Positions 911 through 40,845 are shown, counted from the first letter of the stretch. The stretch is 64,000 nucleotides of DNA from Candidatus Aminicenantes bacterium (GCA_030639305.1 DAOWCY010000012.1:954-64953); one strand, 5' to 3'. The notes: a model not told the origin generated them from the sequence alone. Numbers and translations: made by a program.

Positions 911-991
911 CAGGACTTGACCCCCGTTATGACTCTATCAGCGTCCCTTAAAAATGTTGCAAAACAAGACTTGACCCCGTTAGGCCGTTAG
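911..991 (+). repeat. Repeat family A (core AAAATGTTGCAAAACAAGACTTGACCCCG(T/A)TAG), one full and one partial copy
   Basis: Direct match to copies at 2801-2892, 4207-4372, 14121-14246 and 18060-18127. Confidence 0.9.
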
Positions 992-996
992 GCTGA

Positions 997-1191
997 AAAA
1001 TTGCCCTGCGAGCGTTTGAGTTGATCGAGGCGATTATGAGGAATCCTTTTTCCGGTATTGGAAAACCGGAACCCCTTAAATTCATGCTTTCCGGCGCCAG
1101 GTCACGCCGCTTAACCCAGGAACACCGGATTGTTTATGTAGTAGGCAGTGATCGAATTGATTTCTTACAATGTCGTTACCATTATAAGTGA
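997..1191 (+). pseudogene. yoeB: 5'-truncated Txe/YoeB toxin copy
   Basis: KIALRAFELIEAIMRNPFSGIGKPEPLKFMLSGARSRRLTQEHRIVY...FLQCRYHYK* aligns with intact 20186-20485; no start codon; W>R change. Confidence 0.9.
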
Positions 1192-1232
1192 GTCCCCACA
1201 AAATGCTGTAAAACAAGACTTAACTCCATTAG
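1192..1232 (+). repeat. Repeat family A, degenerate copy
   Basis: AAATGCTGTAAAACAAGACTTAACTCCATTAG. Confidence 0.75.
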
Positions 1233-1244
1233 GTTCTTAGTCGT

Positions 1245-2381
1245 TTAGGTGAAGACGCGCTGTTTTAAGTATATGGGAAAAAAAGGATCGCTGAATTGAT
1301 ATTTATCATCCATTTTCTCGATGATACCGTTTTCGGTCAGGCTGTTCAGCGCTCTCTGGGTACTGGAACTGGAAGAAAGGTTAAATTTTCTCGCATACTC
1401 CCTGGAGAAGATGTTTTCCCGTTCATGCAGAAGGGCGTGGATTACTTTACGTTGATAATGGGTTAGTTTGTCGAATAGTGTGTGGTAATAATCGTCCTGG
1501 TTATCCAGGATCACGGAAACTGCTTTTTTGACAGTTTCTTCATCTATCGGTTTATCTTCTTCTTGTGCCGCCTGCCAGGTTTGCGAGGCTAAATACTGGT
1601 TATAATAGGGGATATTGCCGGTGTACCGTAATAAAACATCAAATACCCCTTTCTTAAAACGCAGGCTCCCTTTGTTGAACTCCTCCTCCATATGTTCGAT
1701 CATTTCCCCGGGAGAGATTTTATCCAACTTTACCAGTTTCCCGATATTATAGAAAGCCCTTTTTTTATCGGCAAACATGTTTAGCATCAAATGGGTTTTG
1801 CTGCCCATGAATACGTAACCGATGTCCTGGTGAAATTGCAGCACCGAACGGAACTGTTTTTCGATGGTGCTGCCGTTTAAGCTGTTGATTTCCTGGAACT
1901 CATCGAAAACAATGACCCATTTCTCATCCTTTTTTTTGATTTTATCCGGTAGGTCCAGGACGTCCAACAGGGAGTTTTCTTTGGGTATGCTGCTGCCGTA
2001 TGAAAACGAAATTACCGGTTTGCCGTTTTCGTCGATGGTTACGGAGGGTATAATTCCTCGTATATAGTTTTTCAAATTTTTGATCGTTTTTTTTATGGGG
2101 CTGCCGTGGGCTGCCATTATTTTTGCTGCATACAGGTTAATGAAATTTTCCACGGAATAGACCTGGAAAAAATCGAGATATACGGTTTTCACCCCTTCTT
2201 TTTTTAATTCTTCGAGAATTTTTATGACCAGGGAAGTCTTACCGTATCTCCTGGGCGCGTAGAGAATGATATTGTTCCCGTTAAGCAGGTCTTTCCCGGT
2301 TTGCGATATTTCCTGTTTGCGGTTAATAAAATAGCTGCCGCCGACTATCGAACCATATTTAAAAGGATTCATCATATTCAT
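1245..2381 (-). CDS. AAA+/archaeal-type ATPase (ATPase_2-like) with probable C-terminal wHTH
   Basis: Walker A YAPRRYGKTS, Walker B VIVFDEFQEI; 378 aa. Confidence 0.85.
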   Translation of the reverse strand: MNMMNPFKYGSIVGGSYFINRKQEISQTGKDLLNGNNIILYAPRRYGKTSLVIKILEELKKEGVKTVYLDFFQVYSVENFINLYAAKIMAAHGSPIKKTIKNLKNYIRGIIPSVTIDENGKPVISFSYGSSIPKENSLLDVLDLPDKIKKKDEKWVIVFDEFQEINSLNGSTIEKQFRSVLQFHQDIGYVFMGSKTHLMLNMFADKKRAFYNIGKLVKLDKISPGEMIEHMEEEFNKGSLRFKKGVFDVLLRYTGNIPYYNQYLASQTWQAAQEEDKPIDEETVKKAVSVILDNQDDYYHTLFDKLTHYQRKVIHALLHERENIFSREYARKFNLSSSSSTQRALNSLTENGIIEKMDDKYQFSDPFFPIYLKQRVFT

Positions 2382-2595
2382 ACACTTACTGCGTACTTTG
2401 TATCGAGAAAAGATTATGCCATTACATGGCGGTAATGAACAACATGTTGTAGATATTTCAAGTTCCCACCGCCAGGTGGTATTTTTTCAAACTCAGTCTT
2501 GAAAAAACATTATACCATTAAAACACGCCGGTTGACAACCCGGGGTAAGATTTTTCCCACGGCGGATGAGGCGCAAGTATAACCGGTAAAAAAAC

Positions 2596-2634
2596 CCATT
2601 ACGCATTGCTGCGTAACGCACCACTGCGTAATGG
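2596..2634. repeat. Perfect 10-bp inverted repeat enclosing a second palindrome (REP-like hairpin)
   Basis: CCATTACGCA...TGCGTAATGG with internal TGCGTAACGCA. Confidence 0.7.
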
Positions 2635-2682
2635 AAATTTTAGGCGAACAGTCAAAAATATGACCCCGTTAGCTCAATAGCT

Positions 2683-2736
2683 GTAGTAAGTAGTGATCGA
2701 ATTGATTTCTTACAATGTCGTTACCATTATAAATGA
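2683..2736 (+). pseudogene. yoeB: 3'-terminal yoeB fragment
   Basis: VVSSDRIDFLQCRYHYK*, near-identical to 1138-1191; downstream DNA matches 20490-20600. Confidence 0.85.
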
Positions 2737-2800
2737 TTCCCCTAAAAATGGTAGTAGGCGGCATGACCGCTGCATAATGCCCGCGGCCATGCGACGCTCT

Positions 2801-2892
2801 GCTAATCCGGGTCACTGGATCACGCTTTCCGGGATGTCAAGTTCTCATTGCGTTCCTCAAAAATGTTGCAAAACAAGACTTGACCCCGTTAG
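2801..2892 (+). repeat. Repeat family A, long form (CTAATCCGGGTCA...GATGTCAAGTTCT...CAAGACTTGACCCCGTTAG)
   Basis: Imperfect palindrome; homologous to 4207-4290 and 20555-20650. Confidence 0.85.
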
Positions 2893-2986
2893 AAACAAAA
2901 AGCGTCCGGCGTCCGCGCCGCGGGCTTGTTTAAGACTTGACCCTGTTAATATTAATAGGAAAATTACAAAATCTTGTAAAATTGCA

Positions 2987-3014
2987 TTGCATTTTTACAA
3001 CATAAGTGTATAAT
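2987..3014 (+). promoter_or_regulatory. Candidate sigma70 promoter, probably leaderless
   Basis: TTGCAT-N16-TATAAT; ATG 3021 lies 6 nt after the -10 box. Confidence 0.55.
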
Positions 3015-3020
3015 TGCATT

Positions 3021-4202
3021 ATGAAAAACAATTACATACCCCGGCTGCTTCGTGTACCGGGCCGGTCTTTTTTTCTTTTCGGACCAAGAGGTGTCGGGAA
3101 AAGTACATGGCTAAAAAAAAACATGCCGGATGCTTTTTTCTTTGATCTGCTCGATTCTTCGCTTTACCTGGAATTTTCGCGCAATCCGGCGAGCCTCGAG
3201 GCCATGATCGGGAATATTCCCGAAGATTCCTGGATTGTGATCGACGAAATCCAAAAAATTCCTACCCTGTTAGATGAAGTGCATCGCTTGATAGAAAAAA
3301 AAAACTGGCGCTTTGCGTTATGTGGGTCATCTGCCAGGAAGTTACGCCGCGGTGGAGTTAACCTGCTGGGTGGCCGGGCCCTCACCCGCAATCTCGATGC
3401 TTTTTCCTATGCGGAGCTCGGGGCTGCCTTCGATTTGGACTTTTCGCTCCAATGGGGGTTATTACCCTGGGTGCAATTGGAAAAAGAAAACGCGGCGGAT
3501 ATCCTGGATTCCTATGTAAACACCTACATCAAAGAGGAAATAAAGGAAGAAGGCATTATCAGGCGTATACCGCCATTTTTGCGTTTTTTAAAAATTGCCG
3601 GACAAATCAACGGACAATTATTAAATGCTCAAAATATTTCCCGCGAGGCCATGGTGCCGCGAGCCAGCGTAGATGTGTATTTTTCTATCCTGGAAGATAC
3701 GCTTTTAGGTCATTTTCTCCCGGCCTATCGTCCCGGTGCGAAAATTCGGGAGCAAACTCATCCAAAATTTTATTGGTTCGATCCCGGCGCTGCCAGGAGC
3801 GCTGCCGGTTTGCTTTTTGAGCCTATCGACAGGACCTGGAAAGGCACGGCGCTGGAGACGATGATTTACCATGAACTGAGAGTTTTTAATCATACCCGGA
3901 ACAGGAATCGCGATATCTTTTTCTATCGAACAGCAAGTGGTACGGAAATCGATTTTGTAATCGAGACACGGAAACGGCAGCCATCATCCGTCCCTCATTT
4001 AGTCTGCATCGAGGTAAAGCTGGCTGAAAAATGGAAATCTTCATGGGAACGCGCCATGCGTTCTTTGCAGAGCAGTGATAGAATCCAGGTCGATCGCATG
4101 ATAGGGGTTTATACCGGTGCAAGAACATATCACGTCAACGGCCTGGATGTACTGCCGGTGGAGGAGTTTCTTAAAAGACTTTACCGGGGGGATGTTTTTT
4201 AG
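3021..4202 (+). CDS. AAA_14 ATPase with DUF4143 / PD-(D/E)XK C-terminus
   Basis: FGPRGVGKST, IVIDEIQK, FFYRTASGTEIDFVIE...CIEVK; ORF track starts at GTG 3006. Confidence 0.9.
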   Translation: MKNNYIPRLLRVPGRSFFLFGPRGVGKSTWLKKNMPDAFFFDLLDSSLYLEFSRNPASLEAMIGNIPEDSWIVIDEIQKIPTLLDEVHRLIEKKNWRFALCGSSARKLRRGGVNLLGGRALTRNLDAFSYAELGAAFDLDFSLQWGLLPWVQLEKENAADILDSYVNTYIKEEIKEEGIIRRIPPFLRFLKIAGQINGQLLNAQNISREAMVPRASVDVYFSILEDTLLGHFLPAYRPGAKIREQTHPKFYWFDPGAARSAAGLLFEPIDRTWKGTALETMIYHELRVFNHTRNRNRDIFFYRTASGTEIDFVIETRKRQPSSVPHLVCIEVKLAEKWKSSWERAMRSLQSSDRIQVDRMIGVYTGARTYHVNGLDVLPVEEFLKRLYRGDVF

Positions 4203-4206
4203 CCCG

Positions 4207-4372
4207 GTTAATCCGGGTCGCGCCTTCCGGGATGTCAAGTTCTATCAGCGTCCCTTAAAAATGCTGCAAAACAAGACTTGACCCCGATAGCATTCTTAAA
4301 AATGTTGCAAAACAAGACTTGACCCCGATAGCATTCTTAAAAATGTTGCAAAACAAGACTTGACCCCGATAG
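4207..4372 (+). repeat. Repeat family A: long form plus three tandem 41-bp units
   Basis: CATTCTTAAAAATGTTGCAAAACAAGACTTGACCCCGATAG-type units ending at 4290, 4331 and 4372; no spacers. Confidence 0.95.
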
Positions 4373-12795: not shown

Positions 12796-13833
12796 ATGGA
12801 ATTATCGAAAGAAGAGCAAAAGAAAGAAGAAAACCACCCACTAAGCATTTATAACATTTGCGGAAAAATCGATCTCGGTATTTTAATACTGGATTCTAAA
12901 AAAAAGGAAATTATTTTTTCAAACCACTATTATAAAAAACTGGCCGGCGATTCCCAGCGGTTGATATTGGATAATATTTTTAAATGTTTGCAGTCGAAAA
13001 ATATCCGTATGCACCGGGAAGTCGATATCCCCGGTGTTTTAATCGGTTACTCGGTCTATCGAGCAGCGCCGGAAGAATATTTAATTTTAATGAGCGACAT
13101 TTCCAACCGCAAGATTTTTTTAGAAACCAGGGAGGAAAACCTCTACTATTCCAAATTAGCGAACTTTATGGCGGAAATATCCCATGAAATCGGCAACCCG
13201 CTCACCTCTGTTATCACTACTCTCCAGGTGCTTTTGAAGAATATCCCGGCCTGGAACAGCGAACAAAAAGGAGACTATATCAACCAATCCATCGATGAAC
13301 TTAAGCGCTTATCGAAGTTTCTAAGCAAAGTACGCCATCTCTCCGAAGAAGATAAAATCGAAAAAAAGAAAATCTTTTTGGAACCGGTGTTAGAACGGCT
13401 TTATTTGCAAAACAGGGCTTTGTTGGCAGCCGGCAGCGTATCCTTTACTTATGATATAGATAAAAAAATTGCCGTGGTGGCTGACGAAGACGCTCTATAC
13501 CGGGTGTTTTTTAATCTTTTGCAAAATTCCTTAGACAGCCTGCCGGGCACGGGCACAGAGGCGATGATTTCCGTACACATCGAAAAAGCGGACGATTTTT
13601 TTGTCAAGCTGGTTTATGAAAACAACGGCCCCCCCATCTCTTATGATAAGTTAGAGAAAATATTTTTGCCTTTTGTCACTACCAGGGAAGCAGGCAGGGG
13701 CATGGGTTTGAATATTTCGCGAAAATTGATGACCCGCATGGGCGGCGCCATTAAAGCGGAAATGCCCGCCGGGGAAGGCAGCCTCGGAGTTAGGTTTGTC
13801 TTATATATCCCTATACAGGAGGAGGGTTCATGA
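12796..13833 (+). CDS. Cytoplasmic histidine kinase with degenerate PAS-like N-terminus
   Basis: EISHEIGNPL, NLLQNS, FLPFVTT, GRGMGL; atypical G1 box ENNGPP. Confidence 0.9.
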   Translation: MELSKEEQKKEENHPLSIYNICGKIDLGILILDSKKKEIIFSNHYYKKLAGDSQRLILDNIFKCLQSKNIRMHREVDIPGVLIGYSVYRAAPEEYLILMSDISNRKIFLETREENLYYSKLANFMAEISHEIGNPLTSVITTLQVLLKNIPAWNSEQKGDYINQSIDELKRLSKFLSKVRHLSEEDKIEKKKIFLEPVLERLYLQNRALLAAGSVSFTYDIDKKIAVVADEDALYRVFFNLLQNSLDSLPGTGTEAMISVHIEKADDFFVKLVYENNGPPISYDKLEKIFLPFVTTREAGRGMGLNISRKLMTRMGGAIKAEMPAGEGSLGVRFVLYIPIQEEGS

Positions 13834-14102
13834 AAGGGCAGTCGGTCGAGGGGCCGCAGCCGATAAAAGAGGAAGAAATGATTTCTTCGCCATCGAAAAA
13901 TCTCCACAGGGAAGAAAGGTTTTGCCTCGTGGCTCATGAGTTGATCGATATTTTCACTATTATCTGCGGGTATAGCGAATTATCCCTGGAAACGCTAACC
14001 GAAGGCACAAAAGAGAAGAAGAATTTGAAAAAGGTCCTGGCCGCGGCGGACCGTGGCATAGAGATGATCGGGAATTATTTTAGCGCATCCGAACGTTGTT
14101 AA
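13830..14102 (+). CDS. Standalone HisKA-like (phosphoacceptor/dimerisation) mini-protein
   Basis: VAHELIDIFTIICGYSELSLE...LKKVLAAADRG resembles an H-box helix pair; no ATPase domain; ATGA overlap with the kinase. Confidence 0.6.
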   Translation: MKGQSVEGPQPIKEEEMISSPSKNLHREERFCLVAHELIDIFTIICGYSELSLETLTEGTKEKKNLKKVLAAADRGIEMIGNYFSASERC

Positions 14103-14120
14103 TATGAGTGCCTTCTAATT

Positions 14121-14246
14121 CAAAAAATGCTGCAAAACAAGACTTGACCCCGATAGTTTTTTAAAAATGTTGCAAAACAAGACTTGACCCCGTTAATTTT
14201 TTAACATTCCTCAAAAATGTTGCAAAACAAGACTTGACCCCGTTAA
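14121..14246 (+). repeat. Repeat family A, three near-tandem copies
   Basis: GACTTGACCC at 14141, 14181 and 14231. Confidence 0.95.
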
Positions 14247-14354
14247 TTTTACCGCCTATGTTAAAAAAAATGAAGCCTCATGAAGAGTGGCTTCCAGACT
14301 GGATGTTGGAGATGGCGGCATGAAAAAAAATGGGGTGACGACAGTTAAAAATCC

Positions 14355-14383
14355 TTGACTCTTTTTCCTGGCAGTGCTATAAT
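14355..14383 (+). promoter_or_regulatory. Strong sigma70 promoter with extended -10
   Basis: TTGACT-N17-TATAAT preceded by TGC. Confidence 0.75.
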
Positions 14384-14447
14384 GAGTTCGTTAAACATAA
14401 AAAATTATACCTTTATTATTTGTTAATAAAATAGTTAAGGAAAGGAT

Positions 14448-15377
14448 GTGAATTTGAACCGTAGAAATTATGAACTTATAACTACAGCAGTACTCCTTGC
14501 AGCCGGTACGGGGAGTCGCCTGTATCCTTTGACGAAGAACATGCCTAAATGTCTTACAATGGTTAACGGGACGTCCATACTTGAACGACTTGTCATCTGT
14601 TTGAATCAGCAAGGCTTCAAGCGCCTTGTTGTGGTCACAGGGTACCTGGAAAATAGTATTCGGGAGTATCTAAAAACGCGGGCTGGCGGTATGACAATCG
14701 ATTATATTTTCAGTCCGCTTTATAAGACGACCAATAACATATATTCACTATGGATGGCCCGTGAAATTATTAATGAGCCGTTTTTGTTGGTCGAAAGCGA
14801 TCTTGTTTTTGACGAATCCCTGTTGGATGACATGCGTGATCCTGACAGAATTGCCATTGCAAGCATGGAGGCGTGGATGAACGGTTCCACCGTAACAGTC
14901 AATCAATCTCAACAGGTTAAGAGATTCCAAATCGGTATTACCGGGCCTTTGGATGAGATCAGGTACAAGACTGTTAATATTTACAGTTTTTCGCTCTCTT
15001 CATGGCATGCTATTGTAGAAAGACTTGACGAGTACATTTCAGACGGCAGAGTAAACTGCTATTATGAAACCGTATTTGAGGAAATGGTGGCTGACGGCAG
15101 CCTCTGTCTTCAAACAGTCTCTTTTGATGCTAACCCCTGGTATGAAATAGACACAATTGCGGATCTGGAAGAAGCTGAGAGACTATTTCCAGCAGATAAA
15201 CTTGAAACAATAATTCCTTACTCGGAAACGGAAACGGTTACTCGTTCACTTCCCGGTTTAAGAGCATCCCCTCAGTCCAATTTTTTATTTATGAAGCCGA
15301 TTCATGATCCTAATATTAAAGAAAATAAAGTATCACCAAAAGAAAAATCAAAAAGAAGTGGATATGGCGCATTATAA
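14448..15377 (+). CDS. Phosphocholine/phosphoethanolamine cytidylyltransferase family (LicC-like NTP transferase)
   Basis: LAAGTGSRLYPLTKNMPKCL, YKTTNNIYSLW, LVESDLVF, WYEIDTIADL; GTG start. Confidence 0.85.
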   Translation: MNLNRRNYELITTAVLLAAGTGSRLYPLTKNMPKCLTMVNGTSILERLVICLNQQGFKRLVVVTGYLENSIREYLKTRAGGMTIDYIFSPLYKTTNNIYSLWMAREIINEPFLLVESDLVFDESLLDDMRDPDRIAIASMEAWMNGSTVTVNQSQQVKRFQIGITGPLDEIRYKTVNIYSFSLSSWHAIVERLDEYISDGRVNCYYETVFEEMVADGSLCLQTVSFDANPWYEIDTIADLEEAERLFPADKLETIIPYSETETVTRSLPGLRASPQSNFLFMKPIHDPNIKENKVSPKEKSKRSGYGAL

Positions 15378-16485
15378 TTATAAGACTCAAACGGAAAAAT
15401 ACGAATTCATCTCCGGGCAGCATGGTGGTTACTATCGTCATGGTTTTATAGACCATGCTTATCTTTATAATCTCTATTTCCCTCCGGAGGCGATTTTTAC
15501 AAGATTTAAAAATCAAATCCATGACATTGTCCTGAACTACCCGGTTGCACAGGATGCTCTTGCCGCTCTTATCGGTAATCTAATCCATCAACCTGCTGAA
15601 AGAATAGTTGTAGGAAACGGCGCTTCCGAACTCATCAAAATATTATGCGGTCACATATCCGGCAAGTTAATCGTTCCGGTGCCTTCTTTTAATGAATATG
15701 CGAATGCAGCGGCGATAGGCCGGGTCGTTGAATTTCCTCTTGAATTTCCATCCTTCCATCTTGATGTGGATAAGTTCGCTGCCGAAGCGATCAGGGTTGA
15801 AGCTGATGTGGCTGTTGTGGTAACGCCTAATAATCCAACATCTATGCTGGTCCCCAGGTCCGCCCTAATATGTCTTGCACAAAAACTTGCAAATCATGAC
15901 TGTATGCTGATCGTCGATGAATCCTTCATGGATTTTGTGCAAAACCCGGAGCAGACAACCCTGGAACATGAAATCGAACGTTACCCCAATATGGCAATCT
16001 TTAAAAGCATGAGCAAAGCCTATGGTATCTGCGGTCTCAGGATCGGCTATATGCTTACAGCAAATTCAGCATTTGCCGAAACTGTACGAAAAGGCGTGCA
16101 TATCTGGAATATTAACGGATTTGCCGAAGAGTTTTTGCGGCTTTTGCCCGGTTACAGACAGGAGTTTGCCGAAAGCTGTAAACAGGTACTGATCGATAGG
16201 GACAATCTGTATGAAAACCTGTGCTCTGTCCAGGGGATGACCGTTTACAAACCCGATGCAAACTTTGTTTTCTGCCGCCTTCCCGATTATGCACAAAGTG
16301 CCCCTGAAGTAACGCGGCGATTGTTTATTGAGCATAACATGTATATAAAACACTGCCGAGACAAAACTCTCCCGGATTCCGATCGTTATATTCGTATTGC
16401 CAGCCGTACCGAAACAGAGAATTGCAATTTAGTTGAAGCATTGACAAATATCATTGACTTGAAAAAAGTGGAAATAAAAAAATAA
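15364..16485 (+). CDS. PLP-dependent class I/II enzyme (CobD/HisC-like; possible phospho-amino-acid decarboxylase)
   Basis: GNGASELI, TPNNPT, VDESFMDF, KSMSKAYGICGLRIGY. Confidence 0.85.
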   Translation: MAHYNYKTQTEKYEFISGQHGGYYRHGFIDHAYLYNLYFPPEAIFTRFKNQIHDIVLNYPVAQDALAALIGNLIHQPAERIVVGNGASELIKILCGHISGKLIVPVPSFNEYANAAAIGRVVEFPLEFPSFHLDVDKFAAEAIRVEADVAVVVTPNNPTSMLVPRSALICLAQKLANHDCMLIVDESFMDFVQNPEQTTLEHEIERYPNMAIFKSMSKAYGICGLRIGYMLTANSAFAETVRKGVHIWNINGFAEEFLRLLPGYRQEFAESCKQVLIDRDNLYENLCSVQGMTVYKPDANFVFCRLPDYAQSAPEVTRRLFIEHNMYIKHCRDKTLPDSDRYIRIASRTETENCNLVEALTNIIDLKKVEIKK

Positions 16486-17141
16486 TGAAAGATTCACAAT
16501 CTCAACAATCACAGCAGACCGGAATGCTTACTTTTGCCGGAGATCTTCCAAATATCTGTTCGCTTGCAGGGCTGTTATGTGCGCTCCTTGGTATATACTA
16601 CGCTATTCTGGGCAACTTTCCTGCTGCAATAATCGGAATGATCTGGGCTGTATTTTTTGACTGGGGTGACGGAATCATTGCCCGTCGGATGAAGGGGCGA
16701 ACTGAAGAATATCGTGCTTTCGGGGGACAGCTTGACTCGTTGATAGATATTGTAAGTTTTGGAATTCTTCCTGCTGTTCTTCTCTTGAGCTATGGAGAAT
16801 TCAGTCCCTGGTTCCTGCCGGGAGCGTTCGTGATAGTCGCGGTCAGTGCAATACGGTTGAGTTATTTCAATGTATTCGGCCTGATCGATGATTCGACTTA
16901 CATGGGATTGGCGCTTGATAATAATGTCATCATTCTTGCTTTTGTTTTCCTGTTTGACGGCTTTCTCAGTAAGACGATTTTTTCAGTCATTATATATTCG
17001 ATGTGTATGGTTATGGCTGCCTTTAATTTAGCACCGGTTCGAACACCCAAGTTTACGGGAAGGTGGTTTTATGTTCTTTTGTTTTATACCCTGGGATTGA
17101 CAGCTATCTATGGCTGGATACTGTGGAACAAATATCAATAA
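16485..17141 (+). CDS. CDP-alcohol phosphatidyltransferase
   Basis: DWGDGIIARR...GGQLDSLID signature; multiple TM segments. Confidence 0.9.
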   Translation: MKDSQSQQSQQTGMLTFAGDLPNICSLAGLLCALLGIYYAILGNFPAAIIGMIWAVFFDWGDGIIARRMKGRTEEYRAFGGQLDSLIDIVSFGILPAVLLLSYGEFSPWFLPGAFVIVAVSAIRLSYFNVFGLIDDSTYMGLALDNNVIILAFVFLFDGFLSKTIFSVIIYSMCMVMAAFNLAPVRTPKFTGRWFYVLLFYTLGLTAIYGWILWNKYQ

Positions 17142-17160
17142 AATTGAAGCAATTATTAAT

Positions 17161-18048
17161 ATGAAAAAAGGGAAAAAGTATATACCTGGCTATCAACCGG
17201 TGAATCACCACGACCCCACCGGACAACAGATCGACGATGCAGCCGTCAAGCGCTATTTTGATAGTGCAAGGATTGGCTCAGGAGCCAATGTCAGTATTCT
17301 AGCCCATGAGCACAATCTCCCGGCCAGTGCGGCCAGATATCGGCTGCACAAAGAGATACGAACTATCAGTGATTGGCTCAACGCGGTGTATGACTCGGGG
17401 CGAGTGCTTGATGTTGGCTGTGGTGCAGGGACCTGGACAGAGATATTCGCCAGGCGCTATAAGACTGTCATAGGAATCGAGCAAAGTAGCCTGATGTTGA
17501 AGGCTGCCAGGGAAAGGGTGGCTCGTCTGCCCAATGTTAAGATACTCGAAGGTGACGGTCGACATGACCTTCCGGAAGGCGCCTTCGACATGATCTTCCT
17601 GGGTGGCCTGTGTATGTATCTGAATGACCTCGACGTTATGGCGCTGCTCCACTCTTTGAAAAACCGTCTTATTGAAGGGGGGTCGATTATCCTCCGCGAA
17701 TCGACTGTACATCAGGGTGTATCCCTATCACGGGGTGAGTATCAGGCAGTCTACCGAAGTGTAAACCTGTACCGTCAATTGTTCGATGGCGCGGGTTCCT
17801 TTCGTGTGGAAGTGCGGCGGAACTTCGGTTACACCAATTTGGTGACTGCAGAGGAGTTGGTTAATCTGCGTCGCAGGTGGCTGCCATTCTTACCCGGGGA
17901 TTCTACCACGCTTGGCTCCTTGACGTGGTGGGTGCTCAGAGGGACCGCGCCGATAAGCTTCTGGGCTCTGCCGCGGCTGCTCTCCCAACTCAACATCCCG
18001 TGGCCCGGATTACAAAATCACTTCTTCAGGCTGCGCCTTGTTGATTAA
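17161..18048 (+). CDS. Class I SAM-dependent methyltransferase
   Basis: VLDVGCGAG motif I, GIEQS, FDMIFLGGLCMYL. Confidence 0.9.
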   Translation: MKKGKKYIPGYQPVNHHDPTGQQIDDAAVKRYFDSARIGSGANVSILAHEHNLPASAARYRLHKEIRTISDWLNAVYDSGRVLDVGCGAGTWTEIFARRYKTVIGIEQSSLMLKAARERVARLPNVKILEGDGRHDLPEGAFDMIFLGGLCMYLNDLDVMALLHSLKNRLIEGGSIILRESTVHQGVSLSRGEYQAVYRSVNLYRQLFDGAGSFRVEVRRNFGYTNLVTAEELVNLRRRWLPFLPGDSTTLGSLTWWVLRGTAPISFWALPRLLSQLNIPWPGLQNHFFRLRLVD

Positions 18049-18059
18049 TAAGTACCTGT

Positions 18060-18127
18060 GGGGTCAAGTCTTGTTTTAACACATTTTGGTAACTCAAATG
18101 TTGCAAAACAAGACTTGACCCCGATAG
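18060..18127. repeat. Repeat family A, inverted doublet
   Basis: GGGGTCAAGTCTTGTTTTAACACATTT...AAATGTTGCAAAACAAGACTTGACCCC. Confidence 0.9.
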
Positions 18128-18137
18128 GTATATTAAT

Positions 18138-18166
18138 TTTACTTTTGCCCCCTTTTGGTATATAAT
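18138..18166 (+). promoter_or_regulatory. Candidate sigma70 promoter
   Basis: TTTACT-N17-TATAAT. Confidence 0.55.
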
Positions 18167-18176
18167 CGACAATAAT

Positions 18177-19778
18177 ATGAAAGAGGATAAAATGGAACGC
18201 TTTTTTAATACAGCAGGGCCGGTAAACCGCAAGGACCATTACTGCATAGAGCCTTTAACCCGGTTCGACCTGGACGAAATCCTATCCCTGATCAACCAAA
18301 AAAAATATTTCGTGCTCCACGCTCCCAGGCAAACGGGTAAGACTTCCTATATGCTGGCCCTGATGGATTATATCAATAAACGGGGCGCCTATAAATGCCT
18401 GTATGTCAACGTAGAGTCCGCCCAGGCTGCCAGGGGAAATGTGGAAAAAGGCATACGCGCTATCCTGGATGTAACCGCGGGTATGGCCGCCGACTATCTC
18501 GACGACACTTACCTGCTGGATAACTGGGAACAAATTTTCAATAAAAGCGGTGAATATTCGGCCTTTTTTACCGCACTAAAAAATTGGTCGAAACAAAGCT
18601 CCAAACCCCAGGTGCTGTTTATCGACGAGATCGATGCCCTGGTAGGAGATACCTTGATCTCCGTACTGCGGCAATTGCGCAGCGGTTATACTATGCGCCC
18701 GGAATTGTTTCCCCAGAGTGTCGTTTTATGCGGCGTTCGAGATGTGCGGGACTACCGTATCTATTCGGAAAAAGACAAAGACATCATAACCGGCGGCAGC
18801 GCTTTTAACGTCAAGGCCGAATCTTTGCGAATGGGTAGTTTTACCGCCGCGGAAATAAATACGCTGTATAACCAACATACAAAGGAAACAGGCCAGGAGT
18901 TTGATGATGCTGTATTTCCCCTGGTCTGGGAGTTGACCGAAGGACAGCCCTGGTTGGTCAACGCCCTGGGATATGAAGTTTGCTTTAAAATGAAAGAGGG
19001 ACGTGACCGGGCCAAAACCGTTACCGCGGATAAAATCGAACAGGCCAAAGAGAATCTCATCATGCGGCGGGAAACCCACTTAGACCAACTTGCCGATAAG
19101 TTAAAAGAAAAACGGGTGATCCGGGTACTGGAACCCATCCTTTCCGGCTTCGGGGATGTGGAAAAAATCCCCACCGACGATATCGATTATGCCGTAGATT
19201 TAGGATTGATAAAAAAAGAACGCCAGATCAGGATTTCCAACAAGATATACAAAGAAGTAATACCCAGGGAATTGACCTACAGCGCCCAGTTGACCATTCT
19301 ACAGGAAGCCCCCTGGTATATGAATGAAGACGGCAGCCTGGATATGGATAAGCTTTTGACATCGTACCAGGATTTTTTCCGGAAACACTTCGAAAGTTGG
19401 GTGGACGGTTTCGATTATGCGGAAGCGGGGCCGCAATTGCTGCTGCAAGCTTTTTTACAGCGTATCGTCAACAGCGGCGGCCGGGTGGAAAGGGAGTACG
19501 GCCTGGGCAGGCAGCGTACCGATTTGCTGTTGACCTGGCCCCACCGGGAGGGCGTTCAACAAGTCGTGCTGGAATTGAAAATCCGCCACCTGCATTACGG
19601 CCTGGATACGGTTATCGAAGAGGGCCTGGAACAAACCTGGGGATATATGGATAAATGCGGCGCCCATGAGGGCTGCCTACTGGTTTTCGATAGATCTGAT
19701 ACGTTAACCTGGGAGGAGAAAATATTCAAAAAAGAAGAGATATATAATAATGTAAAGATCGGTGTTTACGGTATGTAA
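18177..19778 (+). CDS. AAA-like ATPase with C-terminal PD-(D/E)XK domain
   Basis: FFNTAGP, HAPRQTGKT, LFIDEIDAL, REYGLGRQRTDLL...VLELK; alternative start 18192. Confidence 0.85.
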   Translation: MKEDKMERFFNTAGPVNRKDHYCIEPLTRFDLDEILSLINQKKYFVLHAPRQTGKTSYMLALMDYINKRGAYKCLYVNVESAQAARGNVEKGIRAILDVTAGMAADYLDDTYLLDNWEQIFNKSGEYSAFFTALKNWSKQSSKPQVLFIDEIDALVGDTLISVLRQLRSGYTMRPELFPQSVVLCGVRDVRDYRIYSEKDKDIITGGSAFNVKAESLRMGSFTAAEINTLYNQHTKETGQEFDDAVFPLVWELTEGQPWLVNALGYEVCFKMKEGRDRAKTVTADKIEQAKENLIMRRETHLDQLADKLKEKRVIRVLEPILSGFGDVEKIPTDDIDYAVDLGLIKKERQIRISNKIYKEVIPRELTYSAQLTILQEAPWYMNEDGSLDMDKLLTSYQDFFRKHFESWVDGFDYAEAGPQLLLQAFLQRIVNSGGRVEREYGLGRQRTDLLLTWPHREGVQQVVLELKIRHLHYGLDTVIEEGLEQTWGYMDKCGAHEGCLLVFDRSDTLTWEEKIFKKEEIYNNVKIGVYGM

Positions 19779-27320: not shown

Positions 27321-28805
27321 ATGACTGAGTTGAAAGAAGAACAAGAAAAATCGAAAACCGAACCGGCTGAGGAAACACCGGAGAATGTTAAAGAAGAGCC
27401 TGCTGTAAAGGCCGCCCCCCCGGAAAACGCAAAGGCTGAAGATAAAGCCGGTAAAAAACAGCGTAAAACGAAGGATAAGAGTAAAACAAAAGTGAAGGAA
27501 GAGAAAGATAAGGAAAAAACGGAGCCGGCGGATAAAGAGAAAGCCGAAGAGGAAGACGAGGAATTAATAGCCAGGTTTTCCATCGCAATTCCGAAAGAAG
27601 AGATCGAAGCAGGCTTCGAAGCAGCGGCAGCCAAATATGCCGGTGAAGTAAAGCTGCCCGGGTTCAGGAAAGGGAAAGTACCCATAGATGTGGTTAAGAG
27701 CCGTTTTAAGGAGTCCATTAACAGCGAAGTGGTGGACGAGATGGTGCAGCAGGCCGTCATGGCAAAGATAAAAGAAGAGAAGATCAATGCCGCCTCTTCC
27801 CCGGTAATGGAGAAACTCGATTTCGAAGCCGGTAAAGACCTGAAAGCAGACATTAAAGTCGAAATTTTCCCCGAAGTTCCTTTACCCGAATATTTTGAGA
27901 AGATGGAGATCGAGATACCCGGCAAAGAATTAGAGATGAAGGAATTTAATGAGCAGGAACAGGTAGACGTTTTGCTCGAAAACAATAAGCAGAAAACGCC
28001 GGTAAGCGGCCGGGAAATTAAAGCCGCTGACCTGGTGGAGATTACCTACCAGTCGAAGCTGTTGGATACGAAGCGGCTGACCCCTAAGAAAAGCGCCGAA
28101 TACACGGTAAGTGAAAAAGAGGAGTTCGAGATCCTCGATCTTTATAAAGATATCACCGGGAAAAAGGCGCAAGAAAAAATCACCGTCAGGAGGACATATC
28201 CCACCGATTACAAAAAGAAAATCTGGGCCGGCAAAGAGATCGAGCACTATATAGAGATAAATGCCGTTTCCGAGATGGTGAAACCCCAATTGGATGAAAA
28301 ATTCCTGCAGCGCTTCGGTTATAATGACGAAGCGACTTTTAAGAAAAAGTTAAAAGAAGAACATGAAAAATACAAAGAACAGCACCGGGACGAGACGATT
28401 ACTAACCATATCGTGGAGCATTTAATTAAGACTATAAAATTTCCCATCCCCGGCTCCCTATTGGACCAGGAAGTAATGGCCCGCTACGGCCAGAGCATAA
28501 AAGGTTTGAAATTTAAGGATGAAACGGAAGCGAAGTCATACCTGAAACCCTTCAGGGAACAGGTAAAAAAACCGGTGCAATTTTCCCTGATAACCGACGC
28601 CATAAAAGAGAAATTTAAAATCGAAGCAGACAACGATGAGTTGGAGCAGGAGTATAAACGCATCGCGGAAAGAACCGGCGCCCCCATGAAAGAGATCAGG
28701 AAGTATTACATGAAACCTGAACAGAAGAAGGACTTGAAGGACACCGTGACCAGGGTGAAAATAATGAATTTCCTGAAAGAAAAAATTAAAATCAAAGAGG
28801 TTTAA
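27321..28805 (+). CDS. tig: Trigger factor with charged N-terminal extension
   Basis: [10 protein letters not shown] signature; position before clpP. Confidence 0.93.
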
Positions 28806-39375: not shown

Positions 39376-40845
39376 ATGAGCAGCGAAAAAAAAGAAGCGA
39401 ATTACTTAGATTTTGAATTAAAAATCGACCCGGGCGCGGGACGAGATTATCCTATCTGTGTCATCAATTCGCCTGCCGGACAGGCAAGTGAAACCATGCG
39501 TTTCCCTTTTGATGAATTGGTGTTGGAAAACCGCCTTAAGGATTTACAGATCGCCCTTCTGCGTTCAGGAGGAAAACACCGCCGGGTAAAATTGCCGGAA
39601 GAACAAGCAGTGCAGAATTTTGGCAAGGCGTTGTTTGCCGCCCTTTTTTGCGGTGAAGTGCGCAGCCGATATGACGTCGGTTTAACGAAGGCGGCCCAAC
39701 AGGGCAAAGGGCTGCGAATAAAACTCCGTGTGCAATCACCGGAGCTGGCTGCGCTGCCCTGGGAATTTATGTTCGATGAACGGCAGGGTGAATTCCTCTG
39801 CCTTTCCCGCAGGACGCCTATCGTCAGGTATGTCGAGCTGCCTCAGCCCATCCAGCCGGTCTCAGTCGAGCTTCCCCTGCGCATTTTAGGTATGATTGCT
39901 GCCCCGGATGATCTGCCCGATCTGGATATCCAGCGGGAAAAGCAGCGCATAGAGAAAGCGGTTAAAGACCTGGAAAAAAAGGGTCTGGTGGAACTAACCT
40001 GGCTGCCCGGGCAAACCTGGCGGGATTTGCAAAAGGCCATGCGGGGCGGCCCCTGGCATATTTTTCATTTTATCGGCCACGGCGGTTTTGACGATCATAG
40101 AGACGAAGGGCTTATTTGTTTAGCGAATGAAGAAGGTAAAAGACACCTGTTGAGCGCCACCCAGTTAGGCAGGCTGCTGGCCGATCATGAACCTCTCCGT
40201 TTGGTGCTGTTGAATGCCTGTGAAGGAGCGCGAGGGGGCGGTGGGGACATTTTTTCCAGCAGTGCGTCTATTTTGGTGCAGCGGGGTATTCCTGCCGTGA
40301 TCGCCATGCAGTATGAAATCACCGACCGGGCGGCCATCGAATTTTCCAGGACGTTTTATGAAGTGCTGGCCGAAGGTCAGCCCATAGACGCCTCCACCGC
40401 CGAAGCCCGCAAGTCGATCAGTTTAGCCGTCAACAACACGCTGGAATGGGGCACGCCCGTGTTGTATATGCGATCCCCGGATGGTGTTTTATTTTCGCCG
40501 GAGCAGGCCCCACTTAAAGAAAAGATTATTCCTCCTGTTACGCAGCCAGCCCCGGAAAAGCAGCCCGGTTTTGCGAAGATTGAGCGCCTCATGCCTGCAC
40601 TGCTCGAAGAGATGAGAGAGGATATTCGAAACAACCCAACAAAACGGGAGTTCGTCATCCTCAAACGCGGCTGGCAATACAACAGTAGTGAGCGTTATTT
40701 GGCGTACTACCTCGATGAACACGACGACCTGGAGGGTAAACTGGAAGTGCTTGTCAACCTTGGATTCCTCCGAGAGATTACTTACAACAATGTGCGTCGC
40801 TTCATCTTCCAGGAAGAATTCGTGGATTACTTGACGGCGACATGA
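39376..40845 (+). CDS. CHAT (caspase-like) domain protein with unknown C-terminal domain
   Basis: LPWEF, HFIGHGG (His), LNACEG (Cys), VIAMQ, WGTPVLY. Confidence 0.93.
   Translation: MSSEKKEANYLDFELKIDPGAGRDYPICVINSPAGQASETMRFPFDELVLENRLKDLQIALLRSGGKHRRVKLPEEQAVQNFGKALFAALFCGEVRSRYDVGLTKAAQQGKGLRIKLRVQSPELAALPWEFMFDERQGEFLCLSRRTPIVRYVELPQPIQPVSVELPLRILGMIAAPDDLPDLDIQREKQRIEKAVKDLEKKGLVELTWLPGQTWRDLQKAMRGGPWHIFHFIGHGGFDDHRDEGLICLANEEGKRHLLSATQLGRLLADHEPLRLVLLNACEGARGGGGDIFSSSASILVQRGIPAVIAMQYEITDRAAIEFSRTFYEVLAEGQPIDASTAEARKSISLAVNNTLEWGTPVLYMRSPDGVLFSPEQAPLKEKIIPPVTQPAPEKQPGFAKIERLMPALLEEMREDIRNNPTKREFVILKRGWQYNSSERYLAYYLDEHDDLEGKLEVLVNLGFLREITYNNVRRFIFQEEFVDYLTAT

What the first reader, a model, noticed from the sequence alone, without database searches (positions are those of the whole stretch)
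14355..18048. Four-gene cassette resembling a de novo, eukaryote-like CDP-ethanolamine/CDP-choline head-group pathway
Seen: own strong promoter; cytidylyltransferase, CobD-like PLP enzyme, CDP-alcohol phosphotransferase and SAM methyltransferase, all overlapping or adjacent; codon style looks different from neighbours; repeat A on both sides. Known: CobD-family enzymes decarboxylate Thr-P or Ser-P, LicC activates phosphocholine, CDP-alcohol transferases move head groups to DAG, and plants methylate phosphoethanolamine. Inferred route: Ser-P to ethanolamine-P, methylation, CDP activation, then PC/PE or an aminopropanol lipid, without choline uptake. No kinase gene is present.
Basis: partly seen in the sequence, partly recalled or inferred. 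Interest (0 to 1): 0.65.

Follow-up and report, generated by a model that had tools for sequence, protein, structure and literature searches.

The report
Mobile phosphoserine-to-CDP-ethanolamine head-group cassette
Four tightly packed genes, recently acquired by an Aminicenantes-like sediment bacterium and shared at 85-94% identity with other bacterial phyla and with Methanosarcina archaea, most likely turn the common metabolite phosphoserine into CDP-ethanolamine, attach it to a membrane acceptor and N-methylate it, a route to PE/PC-type lipids that I could not find described for prokaryotes.

Summary
Four co-directional genes at 14448-18048 have a near-consensus promoter and end in a strong hairpin.

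- **g1** is a LicC/PntC-type cytidylyltransferase.
- **g2** is a CobD-family PLP enzyme. Its closest solved relative is the Sulfurospirillum SMUL_1544-type enzyme.
- **g3** is a CDP-alcohol phosphotransferase.
- **g4** is a SAM methyltransferase. Its closest solved relative is the first domain of plant phosphoethanolamine N-methyltransferase.

The same genes travel together in at least six bacterial phyla. g1 and g2 are fused in Planctomycetota and Myxococcota. A g1-g2-g3 core without g4 occurs in Methanosarcinales.

Three details differ:

- The transferase is PssA-type, not eukaryote-type. It keeps the serine-pocket residues of PS synthase, so the acceptor is uncertain.
- The cytidylyltransferase pocket is of the primary-amine (PntC) type. 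Methylation therefore probably follows activation rather than preceding it.
- Repeat A is a host-wide repeat, not a cassette boundary.

Everything rests on sequence and comparative evidence; no expression or chemistry could be tested. I rate it a new variant of a Kennedy-type pathway. My literature searches found no description of it.

The parts
14123..14250 (+). Three direct copies of the host repeat 'AAAATGTTGCAAAACAAGACTTGACCCC' upstream of the operon. This is flanking host sequence, not part of the mobile cassette.
   Evidence: 44 copies in the genome and 11 on this contig. Absent from all 32 related loci.
14355..14383 (+). Sigma-70-type promoter TTGACT-17 nt-TATAAT with a TG extension.
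   Evidence: 11 of 12 matches, best in 13800-18300. Sequence read.
14448..15377 (+). g1: LicC/PntC-family CTP:phospho-base cytidylyltransferase, 309 aa, with a variable C-terminal tail of about 60 aa. It has the PntC-like Glu116 and Glu207 pocket.
   Evidence: Pfam NTP_transferase. Best PDB matches are 1jyk LicC at 9.4e-18 and 6pd1 PntC at 2.3e-13. The E/E signature is invariant in 21 homologues, read against PMC6697681.
15364..16485 (+). g2: CobD-family PLP enzyme, 373 aa. Predicted O-phospho-L-serine (or CDP-serine) decarboxylase.
   Evidence: Aminotran_1_2. TIGR01140 CobD scores 177 bits against 134 for HisC. Best PDB match is 6oux at 6e-42, with the PLP lysine motif aligned. Fused to g1 in L013, L015 and L017.
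16485..17141 (+). g3: membrane CDP-alcohol phosphotransferase of PssA type, 218 aa. Motif D59xxD62G63xxA66R67-x12-G80xxxD84xxxD88.
   Evidence: PF01066. pssA model scores 72.7 bits, below the cut-off of 107. AF2 model has pLDDT 85.9. Foldseek best match is MjPSS. A family profile finds only MjPSS in the PDB. Alignment A2.
17161..18048 (+). g4: class I SAM-dependent N-methyltransferase, 295 aa, with a conserved Trp-rich C-terminal helix. It is an optional tailoring gene of the cassette.
   Evidence: best PDB matches are AtPMT1/2 first domain at 1e-15. Alignment A1. AF2 model has pLDDT 79.6. The family is small, 27 clusters at 1e-30. Absent from Methanosarcinales cores.
18050..18135 (+). Long hairpin made by an inverted pair of the host repeat, directly after the g4 stop codon. 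Likely a terminator or mRNA-stabilising element.
   Evidence: I4.: -46.6 kcal/mol, z = -8.5.

Best explanation
The operon is a self-contained, horizontally mobile pathway that makes and attaches a lipid head group.

**Core (g1-g2-g3), all steps inferred.**
- The CobD-like PLP enzyme g2 decarboxylates O-phospho-L-serine, an intermediate of serine biosynthesis, to phosphoethanolamine. This is why no kinase is needed.
- The LicC/PntC-like enzyme g1 couples phosphoethanolamine to CTP, giving CDP-ethanolamine.
- These two steps may run in the opposite order, through CDP-serine, as in FrbH (recalled from my own knowledge).
- The membrane enzyme g3 transfers phosphoethanolamine from CDP-ethanolamine to a hydroxyl acceptor. 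The most likely acceptor is a diradylglycerol: diacyl- or ether-glycerol in bacteria and archaeol in Methanosarcina. The product would be a PE-type lipid made independently of the host's PssA/Psd route.

**Tailoring (g4), inferred.** The PMT-like methyltransferase N-methylates the ethanolamine nitrogen, giving N-methyl-PE, N,N-dimethyl-PE or PC-type head groups. It most probably acts on CDP-ethanolamine or on the membrane product rather than on free phosphoethanolamine.

**Shown:** gene anatomy, family assignments, conserved linkage, fusions, modularity and horizontal spread.
For: **Family assignments.**
- g1 matches LicC at 9.4e-18 and PntC at 2.3e-13.
- g2 matches 6oux at 6e-42, and the CobD model outscores HisC.
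- g3 is PF01066 with an intact catalytic Asp motif.
- g4 matches AtPMT1 at 1e-15, including the segments after the Rossmann core. Proteins of about 476-567 aa with two matched stretches, which I take to be di-domain PMT-like proteins, are among the nearest outgroups.

**Linkage.**
- All four genes lie together in Desulfobacterota-type MAGs, Calditrichota, Gemmatimonadales, Bacteroidota, Planctomycetota, Myxococcota and a JGI contig. Gene order and strand vary, and the flanks are unrelated.
- No fifth gene is conserved.
- g1 and g2 are fused into one 632-656 aa ORF in L013, L015 and L017.

**Modularity.**
- The g1-g2-g3 core occurs without g4 in Methanosarcina (tandemly duplicated in L021), in Methanosarcinaceae and in L023.
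- g1-like plus g4-like genes sit next to a different CDP-alcohol transferase subfamily in L031 and L032. The transferase therefore looks like the consumer of the CDP-base.

**Pocket.** Glu116 and Glu207 are invariant in g1 and match PntC Glu104 and Glu196, not LicC Asp105 and Asp192. This suggests a primary-amine substrate.

**Host context.**
- The host has its own PssA (125 bits, above the cut-off), PgsA and four Psd hits.
- It has no LicD-type transferase.

**Membrane hint for g4.** The conserved Trp-rich C-terminal helix has the most favourable membrane-interface propensity in the protein.
Against: - g3 is PS-synthase-like, not CPT/EPT-like. Foldseek gives TM 0.65-0.71 to MjPSS and 0.35 to CEPT1.
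- The MjPSS residues that hold the acceptor serine (D62, S63, D66, F105, plus R101) are invariant in the g3 family as D84, S85, D88, F128 and R124. A small polar acceptor, or CDP-DAG as donor, is therefore not excluded.
- g2 scores below the CobD equivalog cut-off (177 against 290 bits). Decarboxylase and aminotransferase cannot be told apart from sequence here.
- The histidine of g4 that aligns with 'RESCFHQ' of PMT is not invariant in the family. Fold search does not separate PMT from other lid-bearing methyltransferases.
- A second route to PE has no obvious benefit in a host that already has PssA/Psd.
- There is no expression or lipid data.
- The phosphoserine pathway of the host was not confirmed (inconclusive).
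Confidence: 0.5

Rival explanations
1. The CDP-ethanolamine supply is the same, but the acceptor of g3 is a small polar molecule or a non-glycerolipid. The product would be a soluble phosphodiester, for example a serine-phosphoethanolamine-type or glycerophospho-base solute that g4 then N-methylates, or a head group on another envelope molecule. The precedent is the IPCT/DIPPS pair, which makes di-myo-inositol phosphate.
For: - g3 keeps the complete serine pocket of MjPSS.
- Near-identical g2 and g3 (85-87%) work in hosts with ester lipids and in Methanosarcina, which has sn-2,3 ether lipids. This is easiest to explain if the acceptor is not a domain-specific lipid.
- g1 also scores against the IPCT-DIPPS model at 6.6e-18.
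- The host already has PssA/Psd for PE.
Against: - No such solute is known to me from prokaryotes.
- The C-terminal helices, which form the lipid channel in MjPSS, stay conserved in the g3 family.
- g4 has a conserved helix with membrane-interface character.
- From my own knowledge, PssA-family enzymes accept both CDP-archaeol and CDP-DAG. Use across the two domains does not therefore exclude a lipid substrate.
Confidence: 0.2
2. g3 is simply a second CDP-DAG:serine phosphatidyltransferase (PS synthase). g1, g2 and g4 make CDP-ethanolamine or CDP-choline for an unlinked transferase that decorates a surface polymer.
For: - Closest families are archaetidylserine synthase (84.5 bits) and pssA (72.7 bits).
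- The PSS fold and serine pocket are retained.
Against: - Both scores are below the curated cut-offs.
- A family-wide four-residue insertion in the catalytic motif (x12 instead of x8) sets g3 apart from the host's true PssA.
- g3 is translationally coupled to g2. It travels with g1-g2 in every variant, including g4-less cores.
- The host has no LicD homologue.
- No glycan genes are conserved nearby.
Confidence: 0.08
3. g2 is a threonine-phosphate decarboxylase (true CobD chemistry). The cassette would then make a CDP-aminopropanol and an aminopropanol-type, possibly N-methylated, head group.
For: g2 hits the CobD model best in NCBIfam and matches Salmonella CobD 1lc5 at 2e-26.
Against: - g2 is closer to 6oux (147 bits) than to CobD (96 bits).
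- There is no threonine kinase in or near any version of the cassette.
- A cassette that works after transfer into many phyla and into archaea needs a universal substrate. Phosphoserine is one; phosphothreonine is not.
Confidence: 0.06

Closest known systems
Kennedy CDP-ethanolamine/CDP-choline pathway (eukaryotes), and the Treponema denticola LicCA plus choline phosphotransferase route to PC (recalled from my own knowledge; not retrieved here)
   Same: A phospho-base is activated with CTP by a cytidylyltransferase. A CDP-alcohol phosphotransferase-family membrane enzyme then transfers it.
   Different: - There is no kinase and no uptake of the base. The phospho-base would come from decarboxylation of phosphoserine.
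- The cytidylyltransferase is LicC/PntC-type, not CCT/ECT-type.
- The transferase is PssA-type in fold and pocket, not CPT/EPT-type.
SMUL_1544-type enzyme of Sulfurospirillum multivorans (PDB 6oux, deposited as 'threonine phosphate decarboxylase-like enzyme'). Its serine-phosphate decarboxylase role in norcobamide synthesis is from my own knowledge; the reference is listed in PMC6461909.
   Same: Best solved relative of g2 (6e-42). The alignment is full length and the PLP-lysine motif is conserved.
   Different: g2 sits in a head-group cassette, not a cobamide locus. It is fused to a cytidylyltransferase in some phyla. Its activity is untested.
FrbH of FR-900098 biosynthesis, a bifunctional cytidylyltransferase and PLP decarboxylase acting on a phosphonate isostere of phosphoserine
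   Same: The same two enzyme classes are combined, and they are fused in some lineages. It shows that decarboxylation can follow CMP attachment.
   Different: FrbH acts in a phosphonate antibiotic pathway with no membrane transferase. No sequence comparison was made here.
PntC and LicC cytidylyltransferases (PDB 6pd1/6pd2 and 1jyk; PMC6697681)
   Same: g1 is full-length homologous to LicC. It shares the 'LLxESD' segment and the Glu/Glu pair of PntC.
   Different: No phosphonate genes (Ppm, Ppd) are nearby. Phosphoethanolamine, not 2-aminoethylphosphonate or phosphocholine, is the expected substrate.
Phosphatidylserine synthase MjPSS (PDB 7pow/7b1k; PMC8633023)
   Same: Same fold (TM 0.65-0.71), same catalytic aspartates, and the same Ser1-pocket residues and Arg101 equivalent.
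   Different: - A four-residue insertion with an invariant Arg72 lies in the motif loop.
- The score is below the pssA cut-off.
- g3 is always linked to a CDP-base-making module.
- The host has a separate true PssA.
Plant, nematode and Plasmodium phosphoethanolamine N-methyltransferases (PDB 5wp4, 5wp5, 4krg, 4iv0, 3uj7)
   Same: Best sequence match of g4 in the PDB, and among the top fold matches.
   Different: - g4 is a single domain with a unique, highly conserved Trp-rich C-terminal extension.
- The aligned His is not invariant.
- The substrate may be CDP-ethanolamine or a lipid rather than the free phospho-base.

Membership tests
LicC/PntC-type cytidylyltransferase (NTP_transferase, PF00483) | N-terminal nucleotide-binding signature (LLAAGxGxRLxPLTxxxPK) and a full-length match to LicC | tested here: met
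   Pfam 2.2e-11. LicC 1jyk aligned over residues 9-247. The signature is nearly invariant in A3.
LicC sensu stricto (phosphocholine-specific) | Small Asp at positions 105 and 192, which make room for the trimethylammonium group (PMC6697681) | tested here: not met
   g1 has Glu116 and Glu207, as PntC has Glu104 and Glu196. These are invariant in 21 homologues. The Glu116 equivalence runs through the direct g1-PntC alignment plus the paper's structural equivalence. The aligners place LicC one residue off at this site.
CobD / SMUL_1544 phospho-amino-acid decarboxylases | Fold-type I PLP domain with the Schiff-base lysine in the SxSK motif | tested here: met
   'FKSMSKAYGICGLRIGY' aligns with 'VKSLSKDFGIAGVRLGY' of 6oux and 'LRSLTKFYAIPGLRLGY' of CobD.
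CobD / SMUL_1544 phospho-amino-acid decarboxylases | Score above the curated equivalog cut-off (TIGR01140, 290.55 bits) | tested here: not met
   176.9 bits. CobD is still the best-scoring model, ahead of HisC at 134 bits.
CobD / SMUL_1544 phospho-amino-acid decarboxylases | Decarboxylation rather than transamination, and Ser-P against Thr-P preference | not testable with these tools
   Needs an enzyme assay. I could not retrieve a validated sequence determinant.
CDP-alcohol phosphotransferase superfamily (PF01066) | Motif DxxDGxxAR(x8)GxxxDxxxD | tested here: met
   All motif Asp, Gly, Ala and Arg residues are present and invariant. The spacer is 12 residues instead of 8 in the whole g3 family.
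Phosphatidylserine synthase (PssA, TIGR00473) | Curated cut-off of 107 bits | tested here: not met
   72.7 bits for g3. The host's own PssA on contig C128 scores 125.3 bits.
Phosphatidylserine synthase (PssA/PSS) | Ser1-pocket residues D62, S63, D66, F105 and the conserved R101 of MjPSS | tested here: met
   g3 D84, S85, D88, F128 and R124 are all invariant in A2.
Eukaryote-type choline/ethanolamine phosphotransferase (CPT/EPT, CHPT1/CEPT1) | Detectable sequence or fold similarity beyond the shared motif | tested here: not met
   No CHPT1 or CEPT1 chain found at E<=1 with the family profile. Foldseek gives CEPT1 8gyw TM 0.35, E 2.7.
Phosphoethanolamine N-methyltransferase (PMT) | Class I SAM fold with PMT-type segments after motif I ('MYLxDxxV', 'RES') | tested here: met
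   Alignment to the first domain of AtPMT1, residues 47-187. 'FLGGLCMY' and 'REST' are invariant in A1.
Phosphoethanolamine N-methyltransferase (PMT) | Conserved catalytic residues for phospho-base methylation | tested here: inconclusive
   The His aligned to 'FHQ' of AtPMT1 varies in the family (H, R, P, C, Q). I could not retrieve the residue list for the plant first domain.
Kennedy pathway (as a system) | Base kinase supplying the phospho-base | tested here: not met
   No kinase in the cassette or conserved beside it in the 17 source sequences clustered (the window plus 16 related loci). The CobD-like enzyme stands in its place.

The most novel reading that the evidence does not exclude
The g1-g2-g3 core is a kinase-free, PssA/Psd-independent way of making an ethanolamine-phosphate head group from phosphoserine. 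It has been exchanged recently between bacteria of many phyla and Methanosarcinales archaea. Its PssA-derived transferase would accept diradylglycerols of either domain, including the ether lipids typical of seep sulfate reducers and of archaea. With g4 it becomes a further, choline-independent prokaryotic route to N-methyl-PE and PC. This could explain the PME, PDME and PC lipids seen in anoxic marine sediments.
Probability: 0.3. Interest if true: 0.8.

Novelty: new variant of a known kind. Interest (0 to 1): 0.6.

Why it matters
Textbook prokaryotic PE comes from CDP-DAG through PssA and Psd. The known bacterial PC routes are Pmt, Pcs, the Treponema CDP-choline route and glycerophosphocholine acylation.

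A cassette that starts from phosphoserine would add a new entry into aminophospholipid synthesis. It needs neither a kinase nor an exogenous base, and it can be moved between phyla and even between domains.

It would also give a genetic marker for N-methylated phospholipids, which geochemists use as biomarkers in seep and subsurface sediments.

It would supply a natural experiment on how a PS-synthase scaffold changes donor or acceptor.

It is directly testable by expressing three or four small genes in E. coli.

Tried and rejected
- **Repeat A as cassette ends or a transposon boundary: rejected.** It has 44 genomic copies, 11 on this contig in several intergenic regions, and none in 32 related loci. 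IS200-type Y1 transposases do sit beside some cassette copies elsewhere, but not in this window.
- **Phosphonate (AEP) pathway: rejected.** It was suggested by the PntC match. There is no Ppm or Ppd, and the PLP enzyme is CobD-type, not an AEP transaminase.
- **Cobamide (norcobamide) role for g2: rejected.** No cobamide genes are linked in any locus.
- **Fold search to pin down the g4 substrate: not discriminating.** PMTs, prenyl-diphosphate methyltransferases, TleD and CFA synthase all give TM 0.5-0.6.
- **Literature:** ten full-text searches found no paper on this gene combination. The SMUL_1544 and AtPMT structure papers were not held.
- **Phosphoserine supply (long-form SerA model in the host): inconclusive**.
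- **PEMT-family search:** hits are uninformative, because the family also matches unrelated membrane methyltransferases in control genomes.

Full report
**Anatomy**

Four ORFs lie head to tail on the + strand:
- g1: 14448-15377.
- g2: 15364-16485. A longer frame opens at 15304, but relatives are 367-374 aa.
- g3: 16485-17141.
- g4: 17161-18048. A longer frame opens at 17110, but most relatives are 279-288 aa.

The junctions are tight. g1 and g2 overlap by 14 nt. The g2 stop and the g3 start share a base (TAATG). g4 follows after 19 nt.

The best sigma-70-type promoter of the region lies 65 nt upstream of g1. It reads TTGACT-17-TATAAT with a TG extension, at 14355-14383. Directly after the g4 stop, two inverted copies of a repeat fold into a hairpin of -46.6 kcal/mol, z = -8.5. 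The unit therefore looks like one operon.

**What the proteins are**

- **g1** is an NTP_transferase. Its best solved relatives are the phosphocholine cytidylyltransferase LicC (1jyk, 9.4e-18, full length) and the phosphonate cytidylyltransferase PntC (6pd1, 2.3e-13).
- **g2** is a fold-type I PLP enzyme. In NCBIfam it scores best against threonine-phosphate decarboxylase CobD (177 bits against 134 for HisC, but below the cut-off of 290). In the PDB it scores best against 6oux, the 'threonine phosphate decarboxylase-like enzyme' (6e-42), ahead of Salmonella CobD (2e-26). The PLP-lysine motif aligns. From my own knowledge, 6oux is SMUL_1544, which decarboxylates serine phosphate to ethanolamine phosphate for norcobamides. 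The paper itself was not held; its reference is listed in PMC6461909.
- **g3** is a CDP-alcohol phosphotransferase (PF01066). Its nearest models are archaetidylserine synthase (84.5 bits) and pssA (72.7 bits), both below cut-off.
- **g4** is a class I SAM methyltransferase. Its best solved relatives are the first domains of Arabidopsis phosphoethanolamine N-methyltransferases (5wp4 at 1e-15, 5wp5). The alignment runs beyond the Rossmann core into 'MYLxDxxV' and 'RES..HQ'.

**The genes behave as one module**

g4 relatives at 75-92% identity are numerous in metagenomes. I fetched their contigs and scanned species genomes.

The four genes lie together in the following:
- Desulfobulbaceae and 'Deltaproteobacteria' MAGs;
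- a Calditrichota MAG, where g4 carries a stop;
- Gemmatimonadales;
- Cyclobacteriaceae and Flammeovirgaceae;
- Planctomycetota;
- Polyangiaceae and Myxococcota;
- a 336-kb JGI contig.

Gene order varies. It is collinear in some loci. In others g4 is on the opposite strand, and in L028 g4 comes first. The flanks are unrelated. Clustering of all flanking ORFs found no fifth conserved gene.

In Planctomycetota and Myxococcota, g1 and g2 are one ORF of 632-656 aa. This argues that they catalyse consecutive steps.

**Modularity**

g3 relatives at about 80-86% identity led to a g1-g2-g3 core without g4. It occurs in a Methanosarcina MAG (two tandem copies on a 182-kb contig), in a second Methanosarcina-like assembly with the same flanks, in a Methanosarcinaceae MAG and on a 10-Mb bacterial contig.

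Conversely, more distant g1-like and g4-like genes (35% identity for g4) sit next to a different CDP-alcohol transferase subfamily, with no g2, in L031 and L032.

The invariant logic is therefore a cytidylyltransferase plus a CDP-alcohol transferase. The CobD-like enzyme acts as a supply step and the methyltransferase as an optional tailoring step. A CDP-alcohol transferase of a different subfamily thus sits beside the same cytidylyltransferase type, which I read as separate recruitment. This is the best evidence that g3 consumes the product of g1.

**Horizontal transfer**

- The host's trigger factor has no relative above 54% identity. The named relatives are Aminicenantes and Acidobacteriota.
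- The cassette proteins, by contrast, are 87-94% identical to L024, 65-91% to a 'Deltaproteobacteria' MAG, and 85-87% (g2, g3) to Methanosarcina.
- In an even sample of 401 genomes of the host's phylum, only 7 have a g4 homologue at 1e-30. None of the 11 same-family genomes does.
- g1-g3 have GC3 of 0.40-0.43, against 0.55-0.59 for tig, clpX and lon. g4 has 0.58. This fits a composite origin.
- The g4 family is small: 27 clusters at 1e-30 among 1.84 billion representatives.

**Repeat A**

The 21-mer core occurs 44 times in the 7.6-Mb genome (up to 3 mismatches). Eleven copies are on this contig, in several intergenic regions. It is absent (up to 4 mismatches) from all 32 related loci. It is a REP-like host repeat, not the end of the cassette.

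**Which substrates?**

*The cytidylyltransferase.* The PntC/LicC study attributes choline against primary-amine selectivity mainly to sterics. LicC has Asp105 and Asp192 where PntC has Glu104 and Glu196, which contact the amine (PMC6697681). g1 aligns directly with PntC 'LLLESD' as 'LLVESD' (Glu116), and with LicC 'YWD' as 'YYE' (Glu207). Both Glu are invariant in 21 homologues, whether or not g2 or g4 is present. This favours phosphoethanolamine over phosphocholine. Together with the g1-g2 fusions and the g4-less cores, it suggests that methylation comes after CDP activation.

*The decarboxylase.* A kinase-less cassette that functions after transfer into many phyla and into archaea needs a universal substrate. 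Phosphoserine fits and phosphothreonine does not. The FrbH precedent (my own knowledge) leaves open that CMP is attached first and CDP-serine is then decarboxylated.

*The transferase.* This is where the evidence cuts against a simple Kennedy analogy.
- A family profile finds only M. jannaschii PS synthase in the PDB (1e-12). The AlphaFold model (pLDDT 85.9) matches it at TM 0.65-0.71, against 0.5-0.6 for PIP synthases, 0.48 for DIPPS and 0.35 for human CEPT1.
- The residues that hold the acceptor serine in MjPSS (Asp62, Ser63, Asp66, Phe105) and the conserved Arg101 (PMC8633023) correspond to Asp84, Ser85, Asp88, Phe128 and Arg124. All are invariant in 15 g3 sequences down to 42% identity.
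- g3 differs from true PssA by a family-wide four-residue insertion with an invariant Arg72 in the motif loop (x12 instead of x8), and by its sub-threshold score.
- The host has a genuine PssA (125 bits), PgsA, three PIPS-like paralogues and four Psd hits elsewhere. It has no LicD-type transferase.

I conclude that g3 is a PssA-derived enzyme that uses the CDP-base of g1. Whether its acceptor is a diradylglycerol or a small polar alcohol cannot be decided from sequence.

*The methyltransferase.* Fold search ranks Plasmodium and plant PMTs at the top. Prenyl-diphosphate methyltransferases, TleD and cyclopropane synthase score alike. The His aligned with the PMT 'FHQ' is not invariant. A strongly conserved Trp-rich C-terminal helix has the most favourable membrane-interface propensity in the protein. 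This hints at action at the membrane surface.

**Verdict**

The most likely reading (about 0.5) is this sequence:
1. Phosphoserine is converted to phosphoethanolamine and then CDP-ethanolamine by g2 and g1.
2. g3 transfers phosphoethanolamine to a membrane diradylglycerol.
3. g4 N-methylates the head group to PME, PDME or PC-type forms.

The main rival (about 0.2) keeps the supply steps but gives g3 a small or non-glycerolipid acceptor. Minor rivals are a plain PS synthase with unlinked use of the CDP-base (about 0.08) and a threonine-phosphate/aminopropanol version (about 0.06).

Ten literature searches found no description of this gene combination. Earlier AI notes of this scan describe the same cassette in other genomes and reach similar readings. 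They are not independent evidence.

Noticed in passing
window 958-4367, 14123-14250, 18060-18131: REP-like host repeat (core TGCAAAACAAGACTTGACCCC). There are 44 copies in the genome and 11 on this contig. Triple tandem arrays at 40-50 nt spacing lie upstream of the PAS histidine-kinase/sigma-54 activator operon (4265-4367) and upstream of the cassette. An inverted pair forms a -46.6 kcal/mol hairpin. The genome has 11 Y1-transposase hits. The function (REP/BIME, terminator or regulator site) is unknown.
   Followed up: partly
window 27321-28805 (trigger factor) and the whole genome: The host appears to be an Aminicenantes/Acidobacteriota-like bacterium with no close relative. Its trigger factor is at most 54% identical to anything in 5.8 billion proteins. 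Its 7.6-Mb assembly is more than twice the size of the 11 same-family genomes (2.5-3.5 Mb).
   Followed up: partly
L007:5559-6888 (ANME-2 archaeon MAG contig): A g4-type methyltransferase (85% identical) stands alone next to an IS200-like Y1 transposase, among archaeal housekeeping genes. Y1 transposases also abut the cassette in L001 and L004/L005. IS200/IS605-type elements may move pieces of the cassette.
   Followed up: no
L021:4904-11226 (Methanosarcina sp. MAG): The three-gene core is tandemly duplicated, and the two copies are about equally similar to the window's genes. A histidine phosphatase and an HD-domain gene lie downstream in two independent assemblies (L021, L026).
   Followed up: no
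L008:3957-4823 and L001:5161-7949: Decaying copies. g4 has an in-frame stop in the Calditrichota MAG. In L001 a Y1 transposase gene sits where g1 lies in other loci, and g3 has a late stop.
   Followed up: no
G000:C368:5172-8631: A second LicC-like nucleotidyltransferase (31% identical to g1) and another NTP-transferase-like ORF lie elsewhere in the host genome. Three PIPS/DIPPS-like CDP-alcohol transferases are on C90, C384 and C195. These may be further head-group or solute pathways.
   Followed up: no
window 18177-19778 and 1245-2381: Two AAA_35/ATPase_2-type ATPase genes are each bordered by the host repeat. The one at 18177 follows the cassette directly but is not conserved next to it elsewhere.
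   Followed up: no
window 61107-63200 and 39376-40845: A fused Prok-E2/ThiF/JAB protein (a ubiquitin-like conjugation system in one polypeptide) and a CHAT-domain protease gene.
   Followed up: no
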